64,000 bases of DNA. Origin: Eisenibacter elegans DSM 3317 (GTDB lineage: Bacteria; Bacteroidota; Bacteroidia; Cytophagales; Microscillaceae). A program made the position numbers and the translations under genes. Positions 128 through 30,666 of this stretch are shown here, in pieces; position 1 is the stretch's first letter, and each line of letters starts with the position of its first letter. The stretch is from contig NZ_AUMD01000021.1 in the NCBI RefSeq assembly GCF_000430505.1, positions 1-64,000 on the forward strand, read 5' to 3'. The notes below the pieces were generated by a model. That model was given only the letters and a program-made list of their open reading frames with translations. It had not been told where the DNA came from and searched no databases.

Positions 128-243
128 TAAACGGTGTTAATGGCAAGGGTGAACACCTCTTATCCATTCCGAACAGAGTCGTTAAGCCCCTTAGCGCCGA
201 TGGTACTGCGGTCAAACGTGGAAGAGTAGGTCGATGCCGGATA
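128..243 (+). rRNA. rrf: 5S ribosomal RNA. Boundaries are approximate, about +/-5 nt.
   Basis: Conserved 5S blocks read directly: 'CCATTCCGAACAGAG..GTTAAGC', 'GCGCCGATGGTACTG', 'GAAGAGTAGGTCGATGCC'. An intrinsic terminator follows immediately. The window start probably lies in the 23S 3' end or the spacer. Confidence 0.75.
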
Positions 244-9864: not shown

Positions 9865-12800
9865 TTAGTTGTCGTAGTTGAGGTTGGGCGAGAGCCAGCG
9901 TTCGGCTTCGGCTATGCTTACCCCTTTGCGTTCGGCATAGGCTTGGACTTGGTCTTTTTCGATTTTACCCAGGCCAAAGTACTTGGATTGTGGGTGGGCA
10001 AAATACCATCCTGATACGGCGGCTGCCGGATACATCGCCAAGCTTTCGGTGAGGCATAAGCCGATTGACTCCTCTACTTCGAGCAAGCCGAAGAGGGTCA
10101 GCTTTTCGGTATGGTCGGGGCAGGCAGGGTAGCCCGGAGCAGGACGAATACCTTGGTATTTCTCACGGATAAGTGCGTCGTTATCAAGTGCTTCTTCGGG
10201 CACATACCCCCAAAATTCTTTACGGACGCGCTCGTGGAGGCGCTCCGCAAAAGCTTCGGCGAAGCGGTCGGCGAGAGCCTTGACCATAATGGCGTTGTAG
10301 TCGTCGTGGTCAGCTTCAAAAGCTTTGGCTTTTTCCTCTGCGCCATAGATGGCCACGGCAAAACCGCCGATATAGTCTTCTTTGCCGCTACCTACTGGGG
10401 CGATAAAGTCTGAGAGGGAGAGGTTGGGTACACCGTCAGCTTTTTGGGCCTGTTGGCGTAGCGACTGGATGGTGGCGATCGTTTGGCTGCGGTCTTCGTG
10501 ATAGGCCAGCTCCGAAACGTTGCCGTGGGTGTGGCTATTGGCTTGGCGGGCAGCGGTAGCTTCTAGTTCGGCAGTAGCATAACGGTATACTGCGATTTCG
10601 TCGTGGTTTTGCGTATTGGCCGGGAAGAACCCACAGACGGCCTTGGCTGTAAACCATTTTTCTTCAATGATTTGCGCCAGCATCTGCTGTGCATCTGCAT
10701 AGAGCTTGGTGGCTTCCTTGCCCACTACCTCGTCTTCGAGGATGTTGGGGAAGCGCCCGTGTAGCTCCCAAGTCTGGAAGAAAGGAGTCCAGTCGATGTA
10801 TTGTGCCAGCTCGTCGAGAGGGTAATCGGCCAGTACTTTTTTACCCAGAAACTGCGGCTTGACAATCTCGGTAGCGTCCCAGTCGATCTGAAATTTGTTT
10901 TGCTGCGCCTTTTCGATAGGGAGCATACTTTTGTCTTTCTTGCGGTTGGCGTGTCCTTCGCGCATCCGGTCATACTCCGCGCGGATTTGTGCTGCATAGG
11001 TAGCCTTGTTGTCTTCGCTGAGCAAGTTGCTCACTACGGGCACGCTGCGCGAGGCATCGAGCACGTGTACAACGGAGCCACTGTATTTGGGCGCTATTTT
11101 GACGGCAGTGTGGATTTTGGAGGTCGTTGCTCCGCCAATGAGTAGCGGGATGGTAAAACCTAGGCGTTCCATTTCGGCGGCTACGTGCACCATCTCGTCG
11201 AGGCTGGGGGTAATCAGCCCGCTCAGGCCGATGACATCCACTTGGTGTTTTTTGGCTTCCTCCAAAATCTTTTCGGCAGAGACCATTACACCCAAGTCTA
11301 TCACTTCGTAGTTGTTACAGGCCAGTACTACACCGACGATGTTTTTGCCGATATCGTGTACATCTCCTTTTACGGTAGCCATCAGTACCTTGCCTCCGCC
11401 TTGGTTGCTCAGCTCACCACGGGCGGCGGCGGCGGCCTTAGCCTCTTCCATAAAAGGCATCAGGTAGGCCACCGATTTTTTCATCACCCGAGCACTTTTC
11501 ACTACTTGGGGCAAAAACATTTTGCCCTCTCCAAATAGGTCGCCTACGACGTTCATCCCGGCCATCAGTGGGCCTTCGATTACGTGTAGCGGCTCTGGGT
11601 ATAGTTTGCGAGCCTCTTCAGTGTCTTCGTCTATGTATTCGGTAATGCCTTTGAGCAGGGCGTGTTTGAGGCGCTCTTCTACTGGAGCGTTGCGCCAAGC
11701 ATCGTCACGTACTTTTTCCTTGCCTTGGTTTTTGACCGTCTCGGCATAGTCTACCAAGCGTTCGGTGGCATCGGGACGGCGGTTGAGCAATACATCTTCG
11801 ATGAGTTCGAGCATATCTTTGGGGATATCCTCGTATACTTCTATCATCCCGGCATTGACAATACCCATATCCAGCCCTGCCTTGATGGCGTGATAAAGGA
11901 AGGCCGCGTGCATAGCCTCGCGTACCACATTGTTGCCACGGAAAGAGAAAGAGATATTACTCACCCCGCCGCTCACCTTGGCGTGAGGGAGGTTTTGCTT
12001 GATCCAACGTGTGGCCTCGATAAAGTCCACAGCATAATTGTTATGTTCTTCGATACCCGTCGCGACGGTCAGGATGTTGGGGTCGAAGATGATGTCTTGG
12101 GGAGGGAAGTGAACCTCATTGACCAAAATATCATAAGCGCGTTTACAGATTTCGAGGCGGCGCTCATAGCTGTCGGCTTGACCTTGTTCATCGAAGGCCA
12201 TCACTACTACGGCAGCGCCATAGCGGCGCACTAGGCGGGCTTGCTCTTTAAATTTTTCTTCTCCTTCTTTGAGCGAGATAGAGTTGACAATACCCTTGCC
12301 CTGAATACACTTCAGGCCGGCCTCGATGACTGTCCACTTAGAGGAGTCAATCATCACAGGCAGACGAGCGATTTCGGGTTCGGCAGCCATCAGGTTGAGG
12401 AAGGTCGTCATGACCTGCTCGGAGTCGAGCATCCCCTCGTCCATATTGACATCTATCACCTGTGCCCCACCCTCTACTTGGTCGAGGGCTACACTGAGGG
12501 CTTCTTCGTATTTTTCTTCTTGAATGAGGCGCTTAAACTTGATAGATCCGGTTACGTTGGTACGTTCTCCGATGTTGACAAAGTTGGTCATCTCGGTAAC
12601 TTTTACCGGCTCTAGGCCACTAAGCTTGAGGTATTTGTCGGCTTCTTTGGGGGTACGGGGGCTATATTTGGCAGCGGCCTCTGCAATGGCTTGAATGTGA
12701 TCGGGGGTAGTACCACAGCAGCCACCGATGATGTTGAGCCAGCCATTTTGCAAAAATTCTTCAATGACTGCCACCATCTCCTGCGGGGTTTCGTCATATT

Positions 12801-13656
12801 CCCCAAACTCGTTGGGCAAGCCCGCATTGGGGTGAGCCGAAACCATAAAGTGTGATTCTTTGGACAGCGATTGGATATAAGGCCGCATCAAGTCAGCACC
12901 TAGCGCACAGTTAACGCCTACACTGAGCAAGGGCAGGTGCTCGATAGAGTATAGGAAAGCTTCGATGGTTTGCCCTGAGAGGGTACGCCCACTGGCATCG
13001 GTGATGGTGCCAGATACCATAATTGGCAGCCTCACTCCGGCATCTTCGTAGTATTTTTCGATGGCAAAAAGTGCTGCTTTGGCATTGAGGGTGTCAAACA
13101 CGGTTTCGACCAAGAGCAAGTCTGACCCACCTTCTACCAAGGCTTTGGCCTGTTCATAATAGGCTGTTACGAGTTCGTCGAAGGTAACGGCACGGTATCC
13201 GGGGTTGTTTACATCAGGCGAAAGGGAGGCTGTACGGTTGGTAGGGCCCATCGAGCCGGCTACAAAACGCGGCTTGTCGGGGTTTAAGGCCGTTACTTCT
13301 AAAGCCACCTCTTTGGCAATACGTGCCGACTCATAGTTGAGCTCATACACTAAGTCTTCCATATGGTAATCGGCCATAGCAATGGTCGTTCCGCTGAAAG
13401 TATTGGTTTCGATGATGTCTGCACCGGCTTCTAGGTATTGGCGGTGGATGGTCTTGATAATTTCGGGCTGTGTGAGCGAGAGCAGGTCATTGTTGCCTTT
13501 GAGCGAGTGGGCGTAGTCCTTGAAGCGTTCCGAGCGGTAGTCTTCTTCAGTAAGGTTGTAACGTTGGATCATCGTGCCCATAGCACCATCAAGGACTAGG
13601 ATACGATGTTGGAGAATGTCGTAAATGCTCATCGAATAGGGGTTTTGAGTGACCAA
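9865..13656 (-). CDS. metH: Cobalamin-dependent methionine synthase.
   Basis: 1263 aa with all modules present: Hcy S-methyltransferase, pterin-binding, a B12-binding '[10 protein letters not shown]' (DxHxxG), and an AdoMet activation domain. Confidence 0.95.
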
Positions 13657-13787
13657 AAATTAACATCAAACCGCGCCGTCCCGATGCAGAAAGTAACAAA
13701 GGGCAACGCAGCGCTTCAATTAGTAGCCGGAAAAGCCGACTACTTGCGGTAGTGCTGAATACTCAGAAATTGGGTTTGATGAATTCA

Positions 13788-13899
13788 GACTTATATGTCC
13801 CCAAGGAGGCCTCCTTATTGGGCAGGAATTAGCACCTTGCCGAGCGGCAGGTTGCCAGCGCTTCACAGAGCCTGTTCTCTTCGCGCTTCTGTATAAGTC
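13788..13899 (-). promoter_or_regulatory. SAM-I (S-box) riboswitch aptamer in the metH 5' leader.
   Basis: On the minus strand: P1 'GACTTATA'/'TATAAGTC'. Core 'GAAGAGAacaGGCTCTgtGAAGCGCTGGCAACC'. The 'GGCAAGGTGCTAATTCCTGCC' hallmark. A P4 hairpin 'CCCAAtaaggaggcctccTTGGG'. A second hairpin at 13723-13747 lies in the expression platform. Confidence 0.6.
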
Positions 13900-14586: not shown

Positions 14587-17025
14587 ATGAATGTTCTGAC
14601 AGATACGCCCATATACCTCCATCTCACTGGGCTGAGCAGTGAACACTGCGCCCTGATCATCAGCAAAGCTCTCGACAAAGTACCCGGTGTGGCTACCCAT
14701 CGGGTGGAGTTTAACAATCAGCGGGTGGTGCTGGGCTTAGATGAGAAGGAAGCCTTGGCGCAGGCCGTCGCTCAGATAGAAGCGCTGGGCTATGGGGTAG
14801 AAACACGGCAGGCGCACCTCCCTGTGTTGCACCTGAGCTGCGCTTCTTGTGCGGCCAGCGCCGAGAGCATCACCAAGGCACAGGCAGGCGTGTTGAGCGC
14901 ATCGGTCAATTTTGCCTCTGAGATGCTTAGTGTACGCTATCTGCCCACGGCCATACAACCCACCGATTTGCAAAAGGCCATACAGTCGGTTGGTTTTGAC
15001 TTGTTGCTCACGGATGAGGGTCACAGTGAGCAGACGCAAGATACCTTGACACAAATTCACGAAGCCAAATACCGGCAGTTGCGCCAAAAGACCCTCTGGG
15101 CTTCGGTGTTGTCCTTGCCTGTGGTGGTGCTGGGGATGTGGCTGATGGATATGCCCTATGCCAATGTGCTGATGTGGTTGCTGAGTACGCCGGTGGTGCT
15201 ATGGTTGGGGCGCGGCTTTTTTGTCAATGCTTGGAAGCAAGCCCGCCACGGCACGGCCAATATGGATACCTTGGTGGCGCTGAGCACAGGGGTGGCCTAT
15301 TTGTTTAGTGTATTCAACACGCTTTTTCCGCAGGTGTGGCACGCTCGTGGGCTACACGCACACGTTTATTTTGAGGCCGCAGCCGTCATCATTACCTTTA
15401 TCTTGCTGGGCAAATTGCTAGAAGAAAAAGCCAAAGGCAATACCTCTACAGCCCTCAAAAAGCTAATGGGCTTGCAGGCCAAAACCCTGACTGTGATAAG
15501 GGAGGGACAGACACAGACCATCCCCATCGATGCCGTACAGCAGGGCGACACCGTTTGGGTCAAGCCGGGCGAAAAAATCGCCGTAGACGGTACTGTACTC
15601 AGTGGCCAATCGTATGTAGATGAGAGTATGCTTAGTGGTGAGCCGCTACCCGTACTCAAGCAGGCCAAGGACGCAGTATTTGCAGGCACCATCAACCAAA
15701 AAGGCAGCTTTCAGTTTCGCGCTGATAAGCTCGGCAAGGAGACCCTCTTGGCGCAGATTATCCGGATGGTGCAAGAAGCCCAAGGCAGCAAAGCACCTGT
15801 ACAAAAACTGGTGGACCAAATCGCGGCGGTATTCGTACCCACGGTGATGGGTATAGCCTTGTTTTCGGCAGGGCTTTGGTTGATTTTTGGTGGGGAGAAT
15901 GCTCTTACGCAGGCCATCTTGGCACTCATTACGGTCTTGGTCATTGCCTGCCCCTGTGCCTTGGGGCTGGCTACCCCTACGGCCATCATGGTAGGAGTGG
16001 GCAAAGGCGCTTCGCAAGGGATTTTGATAAAAGATGCCGAAAGTCTCGAATTGGCCAAAAAAATCACCCATCTGGTCTTAGACAAAACGGGAACCATCAC
16101 CCAAGGCCGCCCTCGCCTCATCGCGGAGTATTGGCAAGTCCCCGAAGCGGAGCAAGCCCTGCTCAAGCAAATCTTGGTGGGTATAGAGCAACAATCAGAG
16201 CACCCCTTGGCAGAGGCTGTCTTGGCGCATTATGAAGGCATAAGCAGTGCCAGCCTCCAAGCCTTCGAAAGCATCACGGGCAAGGGCGCAAAGGCACACT
16301 ACGGCGACAAAACCTATTTTGTGGGCAACCAACGCCTGCTGGCCGAGCAGCAAATACACCTCCACCCTGAGCTAGTGCAACAAGCCCAAGCTTGGGGTGC
16401 TACCGCTCAGACGGTCATTTGGCTGGCAGACAACACCCAAGCCCTTGCCGTATTTGCCCTTGCCGACCCCATCAAGCCGGGCTCTAAGGCCGCTATCGAA
16501 GCCCTCCAAGCAGGTGGCATCAAGGTCTATATGCTCACCGGCGACAATGCCGCCACCGCTCAAGCCATTGCCCAAACCGTGGGCATCACCCATTATCAGG
16601 CCGAAACCCTGCCCGAGCAAAAAGCTGCGTTTGTCAAAGCCCTCCAAACCCAAGGGGCAGTGGTGGCAATGGTCGGCGATGGCATCAACGACAGCGCCGC
16701 CCTGGCCCAAGCCGACGTAAGCATCGCGATGGGTAAAGGCAGCGATATTGCGATGGAAGTCGCCAAAATGACCCTCATCTCCTCTGACCTAGGCAAAATC
16801 CCCCAAGCCATCAAGCTCTCACAGCAGACTGTAGCCACCATCCGCCAAAACCTCTTCTGGGCATTCATCTACAATCTGATCGGCATCCCTATTGCGGCGG
16901 GTATTTTGTATCCCTTCAATGGCTTCTTGCTCAACCCTATGTTGGCCGGAGCAGCGATGGCACTCAGCAGTGTGAGTGTCGTGGCCAATAGCCTGCGCTT
17001 GCGGTGGATTGGCCAAAGAGCATAA
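14587..17025 (+). CDS. copA: Heavy-metal (Cu+/Ag+) translocating P1B-type ATPase.
   Basis: Two N-terminal HMA domains (the second carries a 'CASC' CxxC motif). TM 'CPC' motif ('[12 protein letters not shown]'), 'DKTGT' phosphorylation site, 'GDGINDS' hinge. Start placed at the ATG giving '[13 protein letters not shown]'. The raw ORF starts at 14494. Confidence 0.9.
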
Positions 17026-17060
17026 GCCACATACAATACCCAACCCACGGATGTCTTTTA

Positions 17061-17146
17061 TACCCAATCAAAATTGGTTTGGAGAATTTCTGGCACCAAA
17101 AATCCTTGATTATCAAGAAAATCAAATCAAGTGAATCTTGGTATAA
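17061..17146 (+). repeat. Copy A of a MITE-like intergenic repeat family. Short form.
   Basis: 'TACCCAATCAAAATTGGTTTGGAGAATTTCTGGCACCAAAAATCCTTGATTATCAAGAAAATCAAATCAAGTGAATCTTGGTATA'. Terminal inverted repeats 'TAcCCAA..TTGGTA'. Internal palindromes CCAAAattGGTTTGG and CCTTGATtATCAAGG. Confidence 0.7.
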
Positions 17147-17417
17147 TTTGACCTTAACGCAACAGGTTTCTCATCATCAAACCACTATCCTTTACTCTCC
17201 CCTTTACGTTCTTTGTGAATACTTTACACCTTTTTTGGTTAAATGTATTATACTGAGAACCCGGGGTGTCAAAATATGCAACATAGCACCAAAAATTGCA
17301 AATATCCAGAGGTTTTAAAATTACCTAAATCCCGACTGATGCTACTGGCGCTTTTGCCAAGATTTATTAACTTGTTGGACAATTGATACTCTTTTTCATT
17401 TTTCCCACGATAAACCT

Positions 17418-18950
17418 ATGTCAGATACTAATCGAGAACGCGACCTAGTGTTAGCTCCCAATGAGTTTGCCTTTATCTCCGACCAAACCAAGGGCAATAT
17501 CAATGTGTATGTAGGGCCTTACAAAACCAGCTTAGCCAATACGGATAAGCCGGTTATTTTTGATGAGCTGCTCAAGCGGTTTGAAAAATGCAACCTTGAA
17601 GAGTCTATCCAGACTTTCAGCACTGCGCCCGAAGGCTGGTATTTGGTACTCAAAAACCCTCCATTAGACAACAAACAGCCCAAAACAGGCACTTCTAACA
17701 GCCTACCCGATTTACAGATAGGGCGTAAGGTCAATATCCCCGGGCCCGTATTTTTTGCCCTTTGGCCCGGGCAGATGGTTCGTGTGATTCCTGGGCATCA
17801 CCTGCGCTCCAACCAATACCTGCTCGTACGGGTATACGACGAAGAGGAGGCGCGGCGCAACTGGGGGAAGGCTGTTATTAAGACCAAGAGCGGCGCTGAC
17901 CTCGAGTCTGAAACCCCCGACGAAGTTACGGGCAAAGAAGAAATCCCTGACCTGACCATCGGCAAGACCTTGGTCATCAAAGGCGATATGGTCTCGTTTT
18001 ATATCCCCCCTACAGGGGTAGAGGTCGTGCGTGATGGCTACAGCAACTATGTCCGTGAGGCTGTCACCTTAGAGCGTTTGGAGTACTGTATTCTGCTGGA
18101 CGAAAGCGGCAACAAGCGCTACATCCAAGGCCCTGCCGTGGTATTTCCAGAACCTACTGAGGAATTTGTTAAGCTCAATGGCTACCGTAAGTTCAAGGCC
18201 ATCGAACTCAACGAAAACAGCGGTCTCTATATCAAGGTCATCGCTCCATACAAAGAAGGTAAAACAGAGTATGATGCCGGTAGTGAATTATTCATCACAG
18301 GCAAAGACACGATGATATACTACCCCCGCCCCGAACACGCTATTATCAAGTACGGAGGGCGCGAAAAACACTACGCCGTTGCTATTCCGGCGGGTGAAGG
18401 ACGTTATTATATGAATCGCAACACCGGGCAGATTTACCTCAAAAAGGGGCCTTCGATTTTTCTTCCCGACCCCCGCGAGGAGGTCTTCGTACGCCGGGTA
18501 CTACACCCAAAACAAGTCGCCCTTTGGTTTCCGGGCAATGCCGAGGCTTTGGCTTATAACCGACAACTACAGGCAGAACTGGAGCGGAAACAGCGTAGCG
18601 ATCAGTTTTATATCGAAGACTCTGAGTTACAGGCGTTACAGAGTGAAGCTGCTCCGGCTCCGGCACAAGCTTCTGAAGCTCCCAAGCTCCGCAAGAAAGA
18701 GGCGACTTCTGAGGAGATGGCCTCCGATGAGTTTAGCCGCTCACAGTCATTCACACAGCCACGCAGCATCGTGCTCGATACCAAGTACGAAGGAGCTGTT
18801 ACCATCAACCTCTGGACGGGCTATGCTGTACAGGTGGTCAGCAAAACTGGCACGCGCAAGGTCATTGTAGGCCCACAGACTTATCTGTTGGAATATGACG
18901 AAAGCCTCGAAGCAATGGAGCTTTCAACTGGTGTTCCCAAAACCGAATAA
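17418..18950 (+). CDS. Major vault protein (MVP) homologue, N-terminal MVP-repeat region. Ends at an in-frame TAA inside conserved sequence; possibly a pseudogene or a sequencing error.
   Basis: Repeated ~55-aa MVP-repeat modules. 'NEFAFISDQTKGNINVYVGPYKTSLANTDKPVIF' resembles eukaryotic MVP '[33 protein letters not shown]'. 'ILLDESGNKRYIQGPAVVFPEPTEEF' resembles '[27 protein letters not shown]'. The ORF is in the same frame as 18981-19940. Confidence 0.7.
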   Translation: MSDTNRERDLVLAPNEFAFISDQTKGNINVYVGPYKTSLANTDKPVIFDELLKRFEKCNLEESIQTFSTAPEGWYLVLKNPPLDNKQPKTGTSNSLPDLQIGRKVNIPGPVFFALWPGQMVRVIPGHHLRSNQYLLVRVYDEEEARRNWGKAVIKTKSGADLESETPDEVTGKEEIPDLTIGKTLVIKGDMVSFYIPPTGVEVVRDGYSNYVREAVTLERLEYCILLDESGNKRYIQGPAVVFPEPTEEFVKLNGYRKFKAIELNENSGLYIKVIAPYKEGKTEYDAGSELFITGKDTMIYYPRPEHAIIKYGGREKHYAVAIPAGEGRYYMNRNTGQIYLKKGPSIFLPDPREEVFVRRVLHPKQVALWFPGNAEALAYNRQLQAELERKQRSDQFYIEDSELQALQSEAAPAPAQASEAPKLRKKEATSEEMASDEFSRSQSFTQPRSIVLDTKYEGAVTINLWTGYAVQVVSKTGTRKVIVGPQTYLLEYDESLEAMELSTGVPKTE

Positions 18951-18980
18951 GATGCTCTCCGGACGGTCTACCTGCGCGTA

Positions 18981-19940
18981 TTGCACAACAAAATCTCAGA
19001 CCTTATCCGTGCCGAATCCAAAGACTATACCCAAGTCAGTATCTACCTCTCATACCGGGTCAATTTTGAGGGCGACCCTGAGCTTTGGTTCAATGTCGAA
19101 AACTACGTTAAGTTCCTGACTGACCATATGCGCTCTTTTGTCCGCAATGCGGTCAAGAAACACGATATTATGGCCTTCTATGCCAATGGTATTGACATCC
19201 TGCGCGACACAGTCTTGGGCAAAGAACTAAGCAAGGATGGCAAGCGCCAAGGGCGCATTTTTGAAGAAAACGGAATGCGCATTTACGATGTAGAGGTACT
19301 TGATATTCGTCTAAGTGATGCCACACTCGAAAGCCTGCTCGTACAATCGCAGCAAGATGTAGTCAAGCAGACACTCCGTATAGAGGCCGAAAAGCGGAAA
19401 TTGACCTTTACCCAAGAGAGCGAGCAAATCAGCCAATCAATCGCCGAGGCCGAATCAGCTACCAAGCAGAAAAAAGCGACGCTCGAAGCGCAAGAAATCA
19501 CCCAAGAGCTACAAACTACGCTCACCCGCTTGCAGGCCGAAATAGAGGCTAGGCACGTGCAACTCAAAGCCGAAGTGGCCGAACAGGAGCACCTCGACCA
19601 AGTCAAAACTGCCGAACTGGCACGCGAGCGCCAAGAGGTCGAGCTCTCTCTCGAAGTCGCCCAACGTGAACTAGAGCAGTACATCCAAGAGGTACGGGCA
19701 GAGGTCAAGGCAGTGGTCGAAAAAGCACAGGCGGTATCCCCCGACTTGGTAGCAGCGCTACAGGCCTTCTCCGACAAAGCCCTGGCACAAAAAATGGCCG
19801 ACTCGATGGCTCCCCTCGCCATCTTGGGTGGCAAGAGCATCGCCGAAGTCTTTGCCAACCTTCTCAAAGGTACACAAGTAGCCCACGTGCTCAAACGCAG
19901 TGCCGAGCTACTTGACCAAGCCGACGAAGAACAGGACTAG
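18981..19940 (+). CDS. MVP homologue C-terminal part: SPFH-like shoulder domain plus cap-helix coiled coil. In frame with the upstream ORF across a single TAA.
   Basis: 'DALRTVYLRVLHNKISDLIRAESKDYTQVSIYLSYRVNF' aligns with eukaryotic MVP '..[38 protein letters not shown]'. This is followed by a long E/Q/A-rich coiled coil like the vault cap helix. The apparent start at 18981 is TTG. Confidence 0.7.
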   Translation: MHNKISDLIRAESKDYTQVSIYLSYRVNFEGDPELWFNVENYVKFLTDHMRSFVRNAVKKHDIMAFYANGIDILRDTVLGKELSKDGKRQGRIFEENGMRIYDVEVLDIRLSDATLESLLVQSQQDVVKQTLRIEAEKRKLTFTQESEQISQSIAEAESATKQKKATLEAQEITQELQTTLTRLQAEIEARHVQLKAEVAEQEHLDQVKTAELARERQEVELSLEVAQRELEQYIQEVRAEVKAVVEKAQAVSPDLVAALQAFSDKALAQKMADSMAPLAILGGKSIAEVFANLLKGTQVAHVLKRSAELLDQADEEQD

Positions 19941-20071
19941 CCGAAAGGCAAGGGCGAAGCTCCGGCTTCGCCCAATTACCCACCAACTGTGCCCAATGCT
20001 TGGAGGCTTGTAGACATACCCCCTTGAGGCGTGGGTACACCATCATATTTTACTAAACCACTAACAGTACT

Positions 20072-26586: not shown

Positions 26587-26993
26587 CGTTTAGTTGTTGG
26601 GCTAAGTGAAACTAGAATGGAGTAAAGCTATAAAAAAAACCCTGAACCGACCTATACTTTGGCCAAGACCCAAGGCAGTTATACACGAAAGTAAGTTTTT
26701 TTGCGTTTTGTTTTCGACTAAGTTACAATTGGATAGGTTTTTGGTATCTATTTTGTTGAATCATAGTACATTGACCGTAGCAATGCTATCAAGAGTACAA
26801 GGTGGTACTTTTGCTTAAGCAAGGCTACCCCCATTTCCTTGGAAATATTGGAAATAAATGTATGGCTCTCAGGTGTGGATAAGTGAGAATATTTTGTATT
26901 TTGCAGGCAGAATACCATACCCAGCACCTTTGAAACATATCAAGGCACCGTTAACTAAACTAGCATCTATCCAAAACATTTACTAATCGTTGT

Positions 26994-29237
26994 ATGAGGG
27001 CACTAAAACAAATAATGGCGGTGGCGCTTATCGGGATGATAGGCTACCAAGTCCAAGCACAAAGCGCGCAGGAGCACCTTTCTAAAGGCCAGCAGAAAAG
27101 CCAAACAGCGCAATATGCTGAGGCCGTCCGACACTTTGATGCAGCCTTGGGGCAAAACCCGCATTATGAGGAAGCTTACTACTACCGTGGTGAGGCTCAT
27201 TACCGCTTGGGAATGTATCAAAAAGCCCTCAATGATTTTGGCCAAGCTATCCAGATAGACCCCTCACAAGCCATCACCTATCACTCAAGAGGCTTGGTAT
27301 ATCTCGAAATGTTGAAATATGCTGAGGCAATAGCAGACTTCTCCAAGGCGTTGCAAATCTCGCCCAACAACGAACGCATGCTGGCTGACCGCGCCTTGGC
27401 GTATTATCACCAAGGAGAATATACCCAAGCCCAACGTGATTGTGATAGAGCGCTCAAAGCGATGCCCGGTTACGCTTTTGCCTACAGCATCAAAGGGCGT
27501 ATTGCAGAAGCCCAACAACAATACCCGCAAGCCCTGACTCACTACCAAGCAGCCATACACCATAACCGCTATTCGCCTAAGTATCAGACCTTATTGGCAG
27601 ATTTGTATGTACAGATGGAACGCTACAACGAGGCCATGAATCACTACAATGAGGCACTCCAGTATGAACCTAGCTCACAACACCACGAGGCATATACCGG
27701 TAGGGCTGCACTTTATCTGAGAGGCAAGGATTACCAAACGGCTATGAGCGATGCTGCCAAGGCTATTCAGCTCAACCGCCGACACTTCGCCGCCTATGTG
27801 GTGCGAGGTTTGGTACATACACATCTGGGTGACGTGGCCAAAGCAGAAGAAGATTTCCGATTCTATATCGAAAACGCTCGTACAGCCTCTGATTTTCATT
27901 ACATTGCAGGGATGGTTTATCGCCACGCCCACGACCAGCAACTCTATACTAAGGCGGTAGCTTGGGCAAAAAAGGCCGTCGAATTGAATAACAATGCCCG
28001 TAACAATACCCTGTGTGCGCAATTGCATTATGCTGTTTTACAGCTCCCCGAAGCACAAAAATACGCTCAAAAAGCCATAGAGCTTGCCCGCCATAGTGGT
28101 GAAGACAATGCGGTAGCAACGAAATTATTGCAAGAACTTCAGTCTTCGGCATCGCTGGACCGTACCCCGCCCGAAATACAAATCATTACGCCCTCAATGG
28201 CCAATCGCGGCTTTGTAGTGGTAGAAGAACGTGAGAAAATAGAAATCGTAGGCCAAGTGTCTGATGAAAGCGGTGTATCTAAGGTGTTGGTCAATGGCAA
28301 TATCGCCCGACTAGAGGCCAATGGCCGCTTCCGTGGCGATGTGGTCTTGGAAGATTATGAAACCTATATCACCCTCCGGGCAACGGACAAGCGTGGCAAT
28401 ACTTCTGAGCAGACCTTTGTGGTGCGCAAAAATAATGGCCAACAAACAGCCAGCTATGCAAGCCAAACACGACAAACCAACGGCCAACAAGCCGCTACCC
28501 GAGAAACGATGCCCCAATTGGGCAGACATCGTGCCCTGCTTTTTGCTGTCAATCAATATGATAGTTGGACACAGCTAATCAACCCTGTGTATGATGCACA
28601 CGCCATCGCCCGTAATTTGGAAGAAATCTATGGCTTTGAGGTCGAAATTGTCGAAAACCCTACCCGCGAACAAATAGCGCTGACCCTTCGTCGCTATGCC
28701 TCCCAACAATACAGCAATAAGGACCAACTGCTGGTATTTTTTGCTGGCCACGGTATCTATGATGAGATTTATCGCGAAGGGTTTCTAGTAGCTAAAGACT
28801 CTAAAATCAGGGATGAGTCGCGCAGCTCTTACTACTCTTATAGCGAGCTGCGGAGTGTTTTGAGCCGTATCCACTGCGACCACGTGCTCTTGGTATTGGA
28901 CGCTTGTTTCAGTGGTACGTTTGACCAACTGGTGGCTATGCGCGGCCTCGACCCCGAAGACCGCAGCAAGTGGGACTTTATCAACCAAAAAATGCAGTAC
29001 CGTACTCGTCGGTATATCACTTCTGCCGGTAAAGAATATGTGCCGGATGGCCGCCCAGGCCAACATTCGCCCTTTGCGCGCGCTTTCTTGGAAGCCTTGC
29101 GTAGCGAGGGAGGCCAAGATGGTGTGTTGACCATCAACGAGGTGATGAGCTATATGTCTACTGCCAAACCGCAGCCTCTTACCGGAGAGTTTGATGGCAA
29201 TGAGCCAGGCAGCGACTTTCTCTTCATCGCACGCTAA
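26994..29237 (+). CDS. Secreted TPR-repeat protein with a C-terminal caspase-like (peptidase C14) domain.
   Basis: Signal peptide. About 8 TPR units. C-terminal 'FFAGHGIY' (catalytic His) and 'LVLDACFSGTF' (catalytic Cys), the caspase/metacaspase dyad. Confidence 0.8.
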   Translation: MRALKQIMAVALIGMIGYQVQAQSAQEHLSKGQQKSQTAQYAEAVRHFDAALGQNPHYEEAYYYRGEAHYRLGMYQKALNDFGQAIQIDPSQAITYHSRGLVYLEMLKYAEAIADFSKALQISPNNERMLADRALAYYHQGEYTQAQRDCDRALKAMPGYAFAYSIKGRIAEAQQQYPQALTHYQAAIHHNRYSPKYQTLLADLYVQMERYNEAMNHYNEALQYEPSSQHHEAYTGRAALYLRGKDYQTAMSDAAKAIQLNRRHFAAYVVRGLVHTHLGDVAKAEEDFRFYIENARTASDFHYIAGMVYRHAHDQQLYTKAVAWAKKAVELNNNARNNTLCAQLHYAVLQLPEAQKYAQKAIELARHSGEDNAVATKLLQELQSSASLDRTPPEIQIITPSMANRGFVVVEEREKIEIVGQVSDESGVSKVLVNGNIARLEANGRFRGDVVLEDYETYITLRATDKRGNTSEQTFVVRKNNGQQTASYASQTRQTNGQQAATRETMPQLGRHRALLFAVNQYDSWTQLINPVYDAHAIARNLEEIYGFEVEIVENPTREQIALTLRRYASQQYSNKDQLLVFFAGHGIYDEIYREGFLVAKDSKIRDESRSSYYSYSELRSVLSRIHCDHVLLVLDACFSGTFDQLVAMRGLDPEDRSKWDFINQKMQYRTRRYITSAGKEYVPDGRPGQHSPFARAFLEALRSEGGQDGVLTINEVMSYMSTAKPQPLTGEFDGNEPGSDFLFIAR

Positions 29238-29280
29238 AACCCATATCGGAAAATTCTGTTAGACTCTGAACCTACCTAAA

Positions 29281-30666
29281 ATGATACTTTACTTGCGCTT
29301 TATAGTCCTGTTTTCCTGTATCTTGTATGTCGGGCTGTGGCAAACCCCTGCTGCTTTTTCACAAGGATGTATTTTGGATGAACAAGCGTATGCGCAAGTA
29401 CCGCTCAAACCCCTGATGCGTAGTGGCAACTTGCCTAGCTATGCATCGTTGCGCGCATATGCCCCTATCCCCAAAGACCAAGGAGCCTATGGTAATTGTG
29501 TGGGTTGGACAACCGCCTATGCAGGGCGTACCATTATGTTGGCTTATCAACAAAACTGGCGTGACCCTGTGCTGACAACCCAGAATGCACTTTCGCCTTT
29601 TTTTGTATATGAGCAAGCTAAATCAAGAGTAGACATTGATTGTAAGGAGGGCACACTGCTAGTACACGCACTCGAAGAGCTGAAAAACGTAGGCGTGGTT
29701 AAGTTCTCAGATTTTGCTGAAAGCTGTGGCAAACCGATTACCGCACAAGATCGCGCCAACGCCGGTAAGTTTCGTATCCAAAATTATCATCGGTTGTTTG
29801 ACAGCAGGGCAGCCAATGCCAGCAAAATAGCCGCCATCAAGGAAGTGTTGGCCAACCACAAACCTGTATTGGTTGGCCTTACGGCCATTTTCCCCTCTTT
29901 CCGAAATGCCAAAGGCGTTGCTGTCTGGAATCCTATACAAGGGGAAAACCCTAATAAAGGTAGCGGACACGCAGTGGCTATCGTGGGTTATGATGACCAT
30001 AAGTATGGAGGTGCTTTCCAACTGATGAACAGCTGGGGCACTACTTGGGGGGAGCAAGGCTTCATATGGGTGCGTTACCAAGATATGGCCACACTTTGCT
30101 TCGAAGCCTATGAAATGACTATCGAAAAGCCTAACCTCTATACCATGTCAGGCAATATCCGGTTTATTTTGTCTGCCGGATATGATATGAAGGCCGTATA
30201 CAAAGAGGGATATTATGAGATGCGAGAGCCTTACCACTCCGGCACACTCTTTCGCCTACAGGTGTCTAATCATCGCCCAGCCTATGTCTATGTTATCGGG
30301 GCAGATGCGGTCAACAAGGCCTACAAAATATTCCCACAAGATGCCCATACTACCCCTTTTTTGGGACAAGACAATAGCACCGTAGCCCTGCCCAGTGCAG
30401 AGCATTATGTCAAAATGGACAAAACCATTGGCACAGATTATTTTTGTATTTTATATTCTTCGGAGCCTATTCCCATAGAAGAAGTCATATCACAAATGAA
30501 ACGCTTCTCGGGTACATTCAAAGAGCGCCTTGAGCTGGCTCTCAAAGGGCGATTAGCCCCTATGCAATCTATTGACTACCTGCGCAATGGAGAAATTGGC
30601 TTTTATTCAGAAAGTGATAAAAATACGATTGTGCCCATTATCGTGGCCATCAAACACGTAGACTAA
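29281..30666 (+). CDS. Secreted papain-like cysteine peptidase (family C1) with a ~180-aa C-terminal domain of unknown function.
   Basis: 'QGAYGNCVGWTTAY' (Gln/Cys), 'GHAVAIVGYDD' (His), 'NSWGTTWGEQGFIWV' (Asn-Ser-Trp), all in canonical order. N-terminal signal peptide. Confidence 0.8.
   Translation: MILYLRFIVLFSCILYVGLWQTPAAFSQGCILDEQAYAQVPLKPLMRSGNLPSYASLRAYAPIPKDQGAYGNCVGWTTAYAGRTIMLAYQQNWRDPVLTTQNALSPFFVYEQAKSRVDIDCKEGTLLVHALEELKNVGVVKFSDFAESCGKPITAQDRANAGKFRIQNYHRLFDSRAANASKIAAIKEVLANHKPVLVGLTAIFPSFRNAKGVAVWNPIQGENPNKGSGHAVAIVGYDDHKYGGAFQLMNSWGTTWGEQGFIWVRYQDMATLCFEAYEMTIEKPNLYTMSGNIRFILSAGYDMKAVYKEGYYEMREPYHSGTLFRLQVSNHRPAYVYVIGADAVNKAYKIFPQDAHTTPFLGQDNSTVALPSAEHYVKMDKTIGTDYFCILYSSEPIPIEEVISQMKRFSGTFKERLELALKGRLAPMQSIDYLRNGEIGFYSESDKNTIVPIIVAIKHVD

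What the first reader, a model, noticed from the sequence alone, without database searches (positions are those of the whole stretch)
17418..19940. Bacterial major vault protein homologue interrupted by one in-frame TAA at a conserved position
Read together, the two same-frame ORFs give an ~840-aa protein with the complete eukaryotic MVP architecture. ORF 17418-18950 carries tandem MVP repeats with recognisable similarity to the MVP N-terminus. ORF 18981-19940 carries an SPFH-like shoulder and then a long cap-helix coiled coil. Vaults are a eukaryotic ribonucleoprotein organelle, and bacterial MVP homologues are rare and uncharacterised. The single TAA at 18948-18950 sits inside sequence that aligns to conserved MVP residues ('...STGVPKTE*DALRTVYLRVLH' against '[20 protein letters not shown]'). 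It is therefore a nonsense mutation, a base-call error or a recoding site, not a natural domain boundary. The downstream ORF would otherwise need a TTG start.
Basis: partly seen in the sequence, partly recalled or inferred. Interest (0 to 1): 0.85.

Follow-up and report, generated by a model that had tools for sequence, protein, structure and literature searches.

The report
Vault-protein gene broken by one stop codon
This is the Eisenibacter elegans copy of an already described but functionally unstudied bacterial relative of the eukaryotic major vault protein, cut in two by a single C-to-T change (CAA to TAA) that a 99.8 % identical environmental strain does not have, so it is an ordinary recent nonsense mutation or base error and not recoding.

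Summary
ORF 17418-18950 and the same-frame stretch 18951-19940 together give an 840-codon protein with one TAA at codon 511.

It is a true major vault protein (MVP) homologue:
- Pfam Vault_3 spans the stop, and MVP_shoulder has E 1e-29.
- A family profile aligns to human MVP from repeat R6 to the cap ring (99.1 % probability).
- The best fold matches are solved vaults.

Exact look-up identifies the two ORFs as RefSeq proteins of Eisenibacter elegans (Microscillaceae). They are annotated separately as "hypothetical protein" and "SPFH domain-containing protein".

A metagenome contig matches the window at 99.79 % over 22.5 kb with no gaps. It carries CAA (Gln) where the window has TAA, and its gene is intact. 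So are all 120 best protein hits and all 80 related genome loci.

Recoding is not supported:
- TAA ends 20 of the 38 other long ORFs in the window.
- No RNA structure follows the stop.
- The stop is not conserved in any relative.

The stop is therefore a very recent strain-specific nonsense substitution, or less likely a base error.

The family was described in 2013 and 2019. It occurs in at least 273 species genomes across about ten bacterial lineages. Nobody has studied its function. Interest is low to moderate.

The parts
17418..18947 (+). Codons 1-510 of the MVP-homologue gene: the beta-rich repeat 'body' region plus a variable acidic linker at about aa 375-440. Identical to RefSeq WP_245576709.1, 'hypothetical protein [Eisenibacter elegans]'.
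   Evidence: ORF list and translation. Exact look-up. Homologues start with the same MSDxNRERDLVLAPNE, which supports the ATG at 17418. hhalign aligns the part from aa ~216 onward to human MVP repeats R6-R9.
18948..18950 (+). Premature TAA at codon 511. The sister strain has CAA (Gln), so this is a single C/T transition at 18948.
   Evidence: Base-by-base comparison of the window with L001. P0001 and P0123 read ...PKTEQDALRT....
18816..18974 (+). Vault_3 (PF17795) repeat match, equivalent to the last body repeat R9. It spans the stop codon.
   Evidence: aa 467-519, E 1.2e-9, 38.5 bits against a 28.8-bit cut-off. Without the part after the stop, the match is cut at profile position 51 of 62.
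18951..19940 (+). Codons 512-840 plus the TAG stop: end of the R9-like repeat, shoulder, cap helix and cap-ring-like tail.
18981..19940 (+). The downstream half as annotated in RefSeq from TTG 18981: WP_245576716.1, 'SPFH domain-containing protein', 319 aa.
   Evidence: The 20 bases before the TTG are G+C-rich. Nothing here shows that this start is used.
18984..19319 (+). MVP_shoulder domain (PF11978), an SPFH-like fold.
   Evidence: E 8.5e-29 to 1.5e-29. Band_7 scores 22 bits, just under its 23.6-bit cut-off. AlphaFold pLDDT is 70-91. Foldseek finds flotillin, HflK/C, prohibitin and stomatin after the MVPs.
19320..19730 (+). Long single helix corresponding to the cap helix.
   Evidence: The AlphaFold model has helix 625-761 (P0001 numbering) at pLDDT about 86-91. 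It aligns to the human MVP cap helix.
19952..19973 (.). Perfect 9-bp G+C-rich hairpin 12 nt after the TAG. It is probably the terminator of the single transcription unit.
   Evidence: the scan reported it on the - strand; the sequence is palindromic. Its function is inferred.
17026..17417 (+). Upstream intergenic region with promoter-like sites. It carries 6 of the 47 SNPs against the sister strain.

Best explanation
The region is one gene for a bacterial homologue of the major vault protein. The intact allele encodes 840 aa: a beta-repeat body, an SPFH-like shoulder, a helix of about 135 residues corresponding to the cap helix, and a short C-terminal cap-ring-like tail. By analogy with eukaryotic MVP, whose shell forms from MVP alone, it most likely self-assembles into a cage-like particle in the cytoplasm, with the C-terminal helices bundling and the repeats forming the wall. 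That function is inferred, not shown.

In this genome (Eisenibacter elegans; DSM 3317 is the only strain listed under the species), codon 511 is TAA instead of CAA. The stop falls 8 residues before the end of the last body repeat and 12 residues before the shoulder. Translation should therefore end after 510 aa. The product would lack the shoulder, cap helix and cap ring, the parts needed for oligomerisation, so the gene is most likely inactivated. The lesion is very recent, because there is no further decay. It is strain-specific, and it is not a programmed recoding site.
For: MVP homology:
- Pfam Vault_3 and MVP_shoulder both score above their gathering cut-offs.
- phmmer against rat MVP gives E 1e-16, and the family profile gives E 1e-25.
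- hhalign gives 99.1 % probability, E 1.3e-18, over 514 columns from human residue 274 to 842. The human sequence was verified as identical to PDB 11dr_A.
- The 12 best Foldseek matches are human, rat and rabbit vault structures, E 1e-13 to 4e-11.

Nonsense substitution:
- L001, a JGI metagenome contig, matches window 7448-29940 at 99.79 % with 47 mismatches and no gaps. It has C at 18948, giving CAA Gln.
- The same intact allele appears in a Logan assembly of SRR35364711.
- 42 of the 47 differences are transitions. The coding differences split into 24 synonymous, 9 non-synonymous and 1 nonsense, so the change looks like ordinary strain variation.
- All 120 best homologues are intact at 813-894 aa. 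All 80 related genome loci give a single uninterrupted match.

No recoding:
- TAA terminates 20 of the 38 other long ORFs, and all three stop codons are in use.
- The RNA downstream of the stop folds no better than shuffled sequence, z -0.45.
- No tRNA gene lies in the window.

Read support: the exact products of both ORFs are in RefSeq and are also tagged as seen in Logan read assemblies. This is weak support that the T is in the reads.

MVP architecture, and the sufficiency of MVP alone for shell formation, are taken from review PMC7916137.
Against: - No reads could be inspected, so a consensus or base-call error at 18948 is not excluded.
- The two halves carry no other lesion, so nothing proves loss of function.
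- Nobody has shown that any bacterial MVP homologue forms a cage.
- The AlphaFold model is unreliable for residues 1-500 (pLDDT below 50).
- The first ~205 residues do not match human R1-R5 significantly.
- Reinitiation at TTG 18981, 30 nt after the stop, could still yield the C-terminal half.
Confidence: 0.78

Rival explanations
1. The T at 18948 is a sequencing or assembly error. The real genome has CAA and an intact 840-aa gene.
For: It is a single-base difference from a 99.79 % identical strain, and the gene shows no other sign of decay. The encoding-contig index returned no record for either ORF, so the assemblies carrying them could not be fetched or compared.
Against: Substitution errors are uncommon in finished consensus sequence; indels are the usual artefact. 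That is general knowledge, not tested here. The 22.5 kb compared has no gaps and 46 other differences with a natural transition and synonymous bias. Both split products are also tagged as present in Logan read assemblies. RefSeq keeps both as separate proteins.
Confidence: 0.15
2. The TAA is decoded by programmed readthrough, a suppressor tRNA or codon reassignment, so full-length protein is made.
For: The reading frame stays open and conserved on both sides of the stop. Near-cognate decoding of UAA by tRNA-Gln would restore the sister-strain residue; this is inference from general knowledge.
Against: The stop is absent from the sister strain and from every relative examined, whereas recoding sites are normally conserved. 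TAA ends 20 of the 38 other long ORFs. There is no notable downstream RNA structure, z -0.45. No suppressor tRNA was seen, but only 64 kb could be searched. UAA is generally the least leaky stop codon (general knowledge).
Confidence: 0.02
3. The split is tolerated. The 510-aa repeat body is made, and the 319-aa shoulder plus cap helix is made by reinitiation at TTG 18981. They work together, or the SPFH-like C-terminal half works alone as a ring-forming protein.
For: TTG lies 30 nt after the stop in the same transcript. The C-terminal half resembles SPFH proteins that form cages on their own, such as flotillin, HflK/C and stomatin. RefSeq annotates it as a separate protein.
Against: None of the 81 related loci, and none of the 120 best homologues, is split. 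The break cuts the last strand region of a repeat domain, not a linker. The sequence before the TTG is G+C-rich. With only 7 differences in the gene, the break is too recent for selection to have acted on it.
Confidence: 0.04

Closest known systems
Eukaryotic major vault protein (human Q14764 / PDB 11dr; rat PDB 4V60, 4HL8)
   Same: The match is collinear from repeat R6 through R9, shoulder, cap helix and cap-ring region: 27 % identity over 514 columns at 99.1 % probability. Length is similar (840 against 861-893 aa). Pfam Vault_3 and MVP_shoulder are present. The best fold matches are vault structures.
   Different: The N-terminal ~205 residues show no significant similarity to R1-R5. That region is ~68 residues shorter than the 273 residues ahead of the aligned block in human MVP, roughly one repeat. 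An extra acidic, low-complexity linker sits at about aa 375-440. No conserved partner gene lies within 8 kb, so no TEP1, PARP4 or vault RNA equivalent is evident there. Particle formation has never been shown. Here the gene also carries a premature stop.
Bacterial MVP homologues already described: Microscilla marina A1ZGE7, Flexibacter (Bernardetia) litoralis I4AHY9, Saprospira grandis H6L4P8, Plesiocystis, Corallococcus, Enhygromyxa (Daly et al. 2013, PMC3762200; Sokolskyi 2019, bioRxiv 10.1101/872010)
   Same: It belongs to the same family. The Microscilla marina protein (P0021) is 68 % identical and the Bernardetia litoralis protein (P0062) 66 % identical over 98-99 % of the length. The host is a gliding member of the Cytophagales, as noted for this family in those papers.
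   Different: The E. elegans copy is the only interrupted one among those examined. NCBI names its halves 'hypothetical protein' and 'SPFH domain-containing protein'. No NCBIfam, PADLOC or PHROGs model covers the family.
SPFH / Band 7 proteins (stomatin, prohibitin, flotillin, HflK/C)
   Same: The shoulder domain has the SPFH fold and is followed by a long helix, the same layout that drives ring or cage assembly in SPFH proteins (Foldseek E 4e-6 to 1e-3). Band_7 scores 22 bits.
   Different: The Band_7 score is below its 23.6-bit Pfam cut-off. There is no membrane anchor. About 510 residues of beta repeats precede the domain, which SPFH proteins lack.

Membership tests
Major vault protein family | MVP_shoulder domain (PF11978) above the Pfam gathering score | tested here: met
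   100.4-102.8 bits against a 25-bit cut-off, covering profile 2-118 of 118.
Major vault protein family | Vault body repeats recognised by Pfam (PF01505, PF17794, PF17795, PF17796) | tested here: inconclusive
   Only Vault_3 (PF17795) is found, once, at 36.6-38.5 bits against a 28.8-bit cut-off. hhalign aligns the region to human R6-R9. The first ~205 aa are not significantly similar to R1-R5. AlphaFold gives pLDDT below 50 there.
Major vault protein family | Long cap-helix after the shoulder, followed by a cap-ring segment | tested here: met
   Predicted continuous helix 625-761 at pLDDT about 86-91. The alignment to human MVP runs through the cap helix to residue 842.
Major vault protein family | Significant sequence and fold similarity to solved vault structures | tested here: met
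   Single sequence E 1.1e-16, family profile E 1.1e-25, Foldseek E 1.5e-13 with the top 12 hits all MVP.
Major vault protein family | Assembly into a closed multimeric shell (two halves of 39 copies in eukaryotes) | not testable with these tools
   This needs expression and electron microscopy. No experimental study of a bacterial homologue turned up in the library searches.
Major vault protein family | Association with vault partners (TEP1/TROVE, PARP4, vault RNA) | tested here: not met
   No neighbour family recurs within 8 kb; the best cluster is in 7 of 81 loci. Rfam finds only a SAM riboswitch and 5S rRNA in the window. A genome-wide search was not possible.
Programmed stop-codon readthrough or reassignment | The in-frame stop is conserved in relatives | tested here: not met
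   The sister strain has CAA. 0 of 120 proteins and 0 of 81 loci are interrupted.
Programmed stop-codon readthrough or reassignment | The codon is not used as a normal terminator, or a stimulatory RNA element follows it | tested here: not met
   TAA ends 20 of the 38 other long ORFs. The downstream fold has z -0.45.
Recent nonsense pseudogene | In-frame stop inside a conserved domain, with an intact orthologue in a near-identical genome | tested here: met
   The stop lies inside the Vault_3 match. The intact allele sits on a contig 99.79 % identical in DNA.
Recent nonsense pseudogene | The stop is present in the underlying reads | not testable with these tools
   The only indirect hint is that both split products are tagged as also seen in Logan read assemblies.

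The most novel reading that the evidence does not exclude
The break is not simply inactivating. After termination at TAA, ribosomes reinitiate at TTG 18981. The free SPFH-like shoulder plus cap-helix fragment then forms a ring or cap on its own, or recruits the separately made repeat body. That would make E. elegans DSM 3317 a natural 'split vault' showing which half of MVP carries the assembly function. Alternatively, low-level UAA readthrough by tRNA-Gln restores a trace of wild-type protein.
Probability: 0.05. Interest if true: 0.5.

Novelty: new member of a known kind. Interest (0 to 1): 0.22.

Why it matters
The practical gain is an annotation correction. Two RefSeq proteins of Eisenibacter elegans, WP_245576709.1 and WP_245576716.1, are the halves of one MVP-homologue gene broken by a nonsense codon, and an intact allele exists in nature.

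The wider point concerns the family, not the stop codon. Bacterial MVP homologues are uninterrupted in every relative examined, 57-70 % identical across about ten bacterial lineages, and have no conserved neighbour genes. Their function has not been studied. If the TAA is real, DSM 3317 is a natural null mutant. It could be compared with an intact relative such as Microscilla marina or Bernardetia litoralis to look for a phenotype.

Tried and rejected
- Codon reassignment: rejected, because TAA is the commonest terminator in the window.
- A structured readthrough signal: rejected, z -0.45.
- A suppressor tRNA: none in the window, but only 64 kb is available.
- A conserved operon partner: none within 8 kb across 81 loci.
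- Links to defence systems or phages: no PADLOC hit and only marginal PHROGs hits.
- NCBIfam: no model.
- AlphaFold on the full-length intact allele with 120 homologues: mean pLDDT 53.7, and the N-terminal 500 residues are unusable, so the number of body repeats could not be counted.
- N-terminal profile against human MVP 1-520: not significant.
- Exact look-up of the two window ORFs in the encoding-contig index failed, so I could not identify the Logan run that carries the TAA.
- Metagenome scans found neither the exact DNA nor any further close strain; the best hit is 67 % identical.
- The window's own species was not among the genome-contig hits; the best is 70 %.
- Polarity of the two missense differences could not be set, because both lie in gappy, variable linker columns.
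Full report
**1. The observation**

The window has an ATG-initiated ORF at 17418-18950 (510 aa) that ends in TAA at 18948-18950. The same frame continues without another stop to TAG at 19938-19940. Read through, this gives 840 sense codons. After the TAA, the first possible start codon in frame is TTG at 18981, and the next ATG is at 19128.

**2. Is it a major vault protein homologue?**

Yes.
- The N-terminal ORF alone hits Pfam Vault_3 (E 5e-9), and the match is cut off at profile position 51 of 62 by the stop. The C-terminal part hits MVP_shoulder (E 1.5e-29) and, just under threshold, Band_7/SPFH.
- With the two parts joined, Vault_3 extends across the stop (aa 467-519, profile 8-60) and the shoulder follows at aa 523-634.
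- phmmer against all PDB sequences finds only major vault proteins (rat, E 1e-16). A profile of 120 homologues raises this to E 1e-25.
hhalign of the family profile against it gives 99.1 % probability and E 1.3e-18 over 514 columns. Residues 206-802 of the intact allele align with human 274-842, that is repeats R6-R9, shoulder, cap helix and cap-ring region.
- An AlphaFold model of the intact allele is confident only for the shoulder and a 137-residue helix, with pLDDT around 70-91. Its best Foldseek matches are twelve vault structures (E 1e-13 to 4e-11), followed by flotillin, HflK/C, prohibitin and stomatin.

The first ~205 residues are not significantly similar to human R1-R5, although the extreme N-terminal motif lines up collinearly. 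No other Vault Pfam model hits. The 'complete architecture' is therefore demonstrated from R6 onward and only plausible before that.

**3. Whose genome is this, and how is it annotated?**

Exact-sequence look-up shows that the 510-aa ORF is WP_245576709.1, 'hypothetical protein [Eisenibacter elegans]'. The 319-aa TTG-initiated ORF is WP_245576716.1, 'SPFH domain-containing protein [Eisenibacter elegans]'. Both are recorded on a single contig whose length is given as 244,561 bp. E. elegans belongs to the Microscillaceae, order Cytophagales, and DSM 3317 is the only strain listed under the species. No NCBIfam model covers the family, which explains the uninformative names.

**4. What is the stop codon?**

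The closest database protein, P0001, comes from a JGI metagenome and is named 'major vault protein'. It is intact and reads ...PKTEQDALRT....

Its contig was fetched as L001. It aligns to window 7448-29940 at 99.79 % identity, with 47 mismatches and no gaps. At 18948 the window has T and L001 has C, so TAA corresponds to CAA (Gln). The same intact allele, with identical DNA, occurs in a Logan assembly of SRR35364711.

The 47 differences look like ordinary strain variation:
- 42 are transitions.
- 24 are synonymous, 9 non-synonymous, 13 intergenic and 1 nonsense.
- Within the gene there are 4 synonymous and 2 missense differences. Both missense changes lie in gappy, variable linker columns.

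There is therefore no sign of decay beyond the stop itself.

All 120 best homologues are 813-894 aa and uninterrupted. All 80 related loci from species-representative genomes give a single uninterrupted match. At the stop column the homologues have E, D, A, L, Q or S. The column is flanked by invariant P-K and the conserved TVYLRVL block. The site is a variable residue within a conserved block near the end of the last body repeat.

**5. Recoding is not supported**

TAA terminates 20 of the 38 other long ORFs in the window, and TGA and TAG are also used. The 120 nt beginning just before the stop fold no better than shuffled sequence, z -0.45. No tRNA gene is in the window. The stop is not conserved even in a 99.8 % identical strain. 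TAA is not the codon used for selenocysteine or pyrrolysine (established knowledge).

The remaining alternatives are a real, very recent nonsense mutation or a consensus error. I favour the real mutation at about 0.8, for three reasons:
- The 22.5 kb compared contain no indels, and the other differences have a natural substitution spectrum.
- Both split products are also tagged as present in Logan read assemblies.
- Single-base substitution errors are uncommon in assembled consensus (general knowledge).

Only reads or resequencing can settle this.

**6. Likely consequence and mechanism**

In eukaryotic MVP the body is made of nine beta repeats, followed by a shoulder, a 155-residue cap helix and a cap ring. 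MVP alone is enough to build the shell (review PMC7916137). That review also cites work assigning a role in vault assembly to the coiled-coil region.

Here the stop removes the last 8 residues of the R9-like repeat and everything after it. The 510-aa product would lack the parts expected to drive oligomerisation. I therefore infer loss of function in this strain.

For the intact protein, I infer a cytoplasmic self-assembling cage or ring. This rests on three points: homology; the very strong conservation over the full length (57-70 % identity between lineages); and the lack of any conserved neighbour gene, which fits a protein that assembles on its own. None of this has been shown experimentally for any bacterium.

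A G+C-rich hairpin 12 nt after the TAG stop (19952-19973) probably ends the single transcript. Reinitiation at TTG 18981 is conceivable but unsupported.

**7. Comparison with what is known, and novelty**

Bacterial MVP homologues were reported by Daly et al. 2013 (PMC3762200). They list Microscilla marina A1ZGE7 and Flexibacter litoralis I4AHY9, which are 68 % and 66 % identical to this gene. Sokolskyi 2019 (bioRxiv 10.1101/872010) treated them further, and phage copies were described in 2023.

The family is broader than those papers list:
- At least 273 species genomes encode a relative. The lineages represented include Cytophagales, Chitinophagales, Myxococcota, Riflebacteria, Sericytochromatia, Chloroflexota, Desulfobacterota, Gemmatimonadota and Vulcanimicrobiota.
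- In a library of 1.84 billion representative proteins, 766 clusters at 50 % identity match at E <= 1e-30.

The kind is known, and the E. elegans locus is a new, broken member that is mis-annotated as two proteins. The stop codon itself is ordinary.

**8. Verdict**

The interest is modest at 0.22: a strain-specific nonsense SNP, or a base error, in a known but functionally unstudied family. If the TAA is real, its main use is as a natural null mutant for studying bacterial vault-like proteins.

Noticed in passing
window 13788-13899 (-): A SAM riboswitch (Rfam RF00162, 74 bits) lies upstream of the 1264-codon ORF 9865-13659 (-). The sister contig annotates that ORF with methionine synthase (MetH) domains.
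   Followed up: no
window 130-242 (+): A 5S rRNA gene lies at the very start of the window, so the window probably begins at the end of an rRNA operon.
   Followed up: no
window 17026-17417: The 392-bp intergenic region upstream of the MVP gene holds 6 of the 47 SNPs against the sister strain (1.5 % against 0.21 % overall). More broadly, 14.5-21.8 kb has 28 SNPs in 7.3 kb, about three times the density of the flanks.
   Followed up: partly
window 17023-17025: The stop codon of the copper/heavy-metal P-type ATPase gene is TAA here and TGA in the sister strain. Stop codons are interchanged freely between the two strains.
   Followed up: no
L001 10001 (window 17448): The JGI gene call for the intact allele starts at an internal GTG, 10 codons downstream of the ATG at 17418. 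Homologues conserve the preceding MSDxNRERDL, and a Logan gene call (P0123) uses the ATG. The JGI start is probably wrong.
   Followed up: yes
L002-L081 (80 genome loci): The bacterial MVP homologues are 57-70 % identical over their full length across very distant lineages, from Cytophagales to Nannocystis, Riflebacteria, Sericytochromatia and Anaerolineae. They have no conserved neighbour genes. This suggests horizontal spread, very strong structural constraint, or both.
   Followed up: partly
window 26964-30666 (+): Two adjacent large genes encode a TPR-repeat protein with a caspase-like Peptidase_C14 domain, then a Peptidase_C1 protein with DUF4384 (Pfam labels taken from the sister contig). 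This pairing does not recur next to MVP genes at other loci.
   Followed up: no
window 19283-19894 (-): A 203-aa antisense ORF lies inside the cap-helix coding region. It is probably a chance ORF opposite a low-complexity coiled-coil sequence. In high-G+C relatives, similar antisense ORFs are even longer than the gene itself (6 loci).
   Followed up: no
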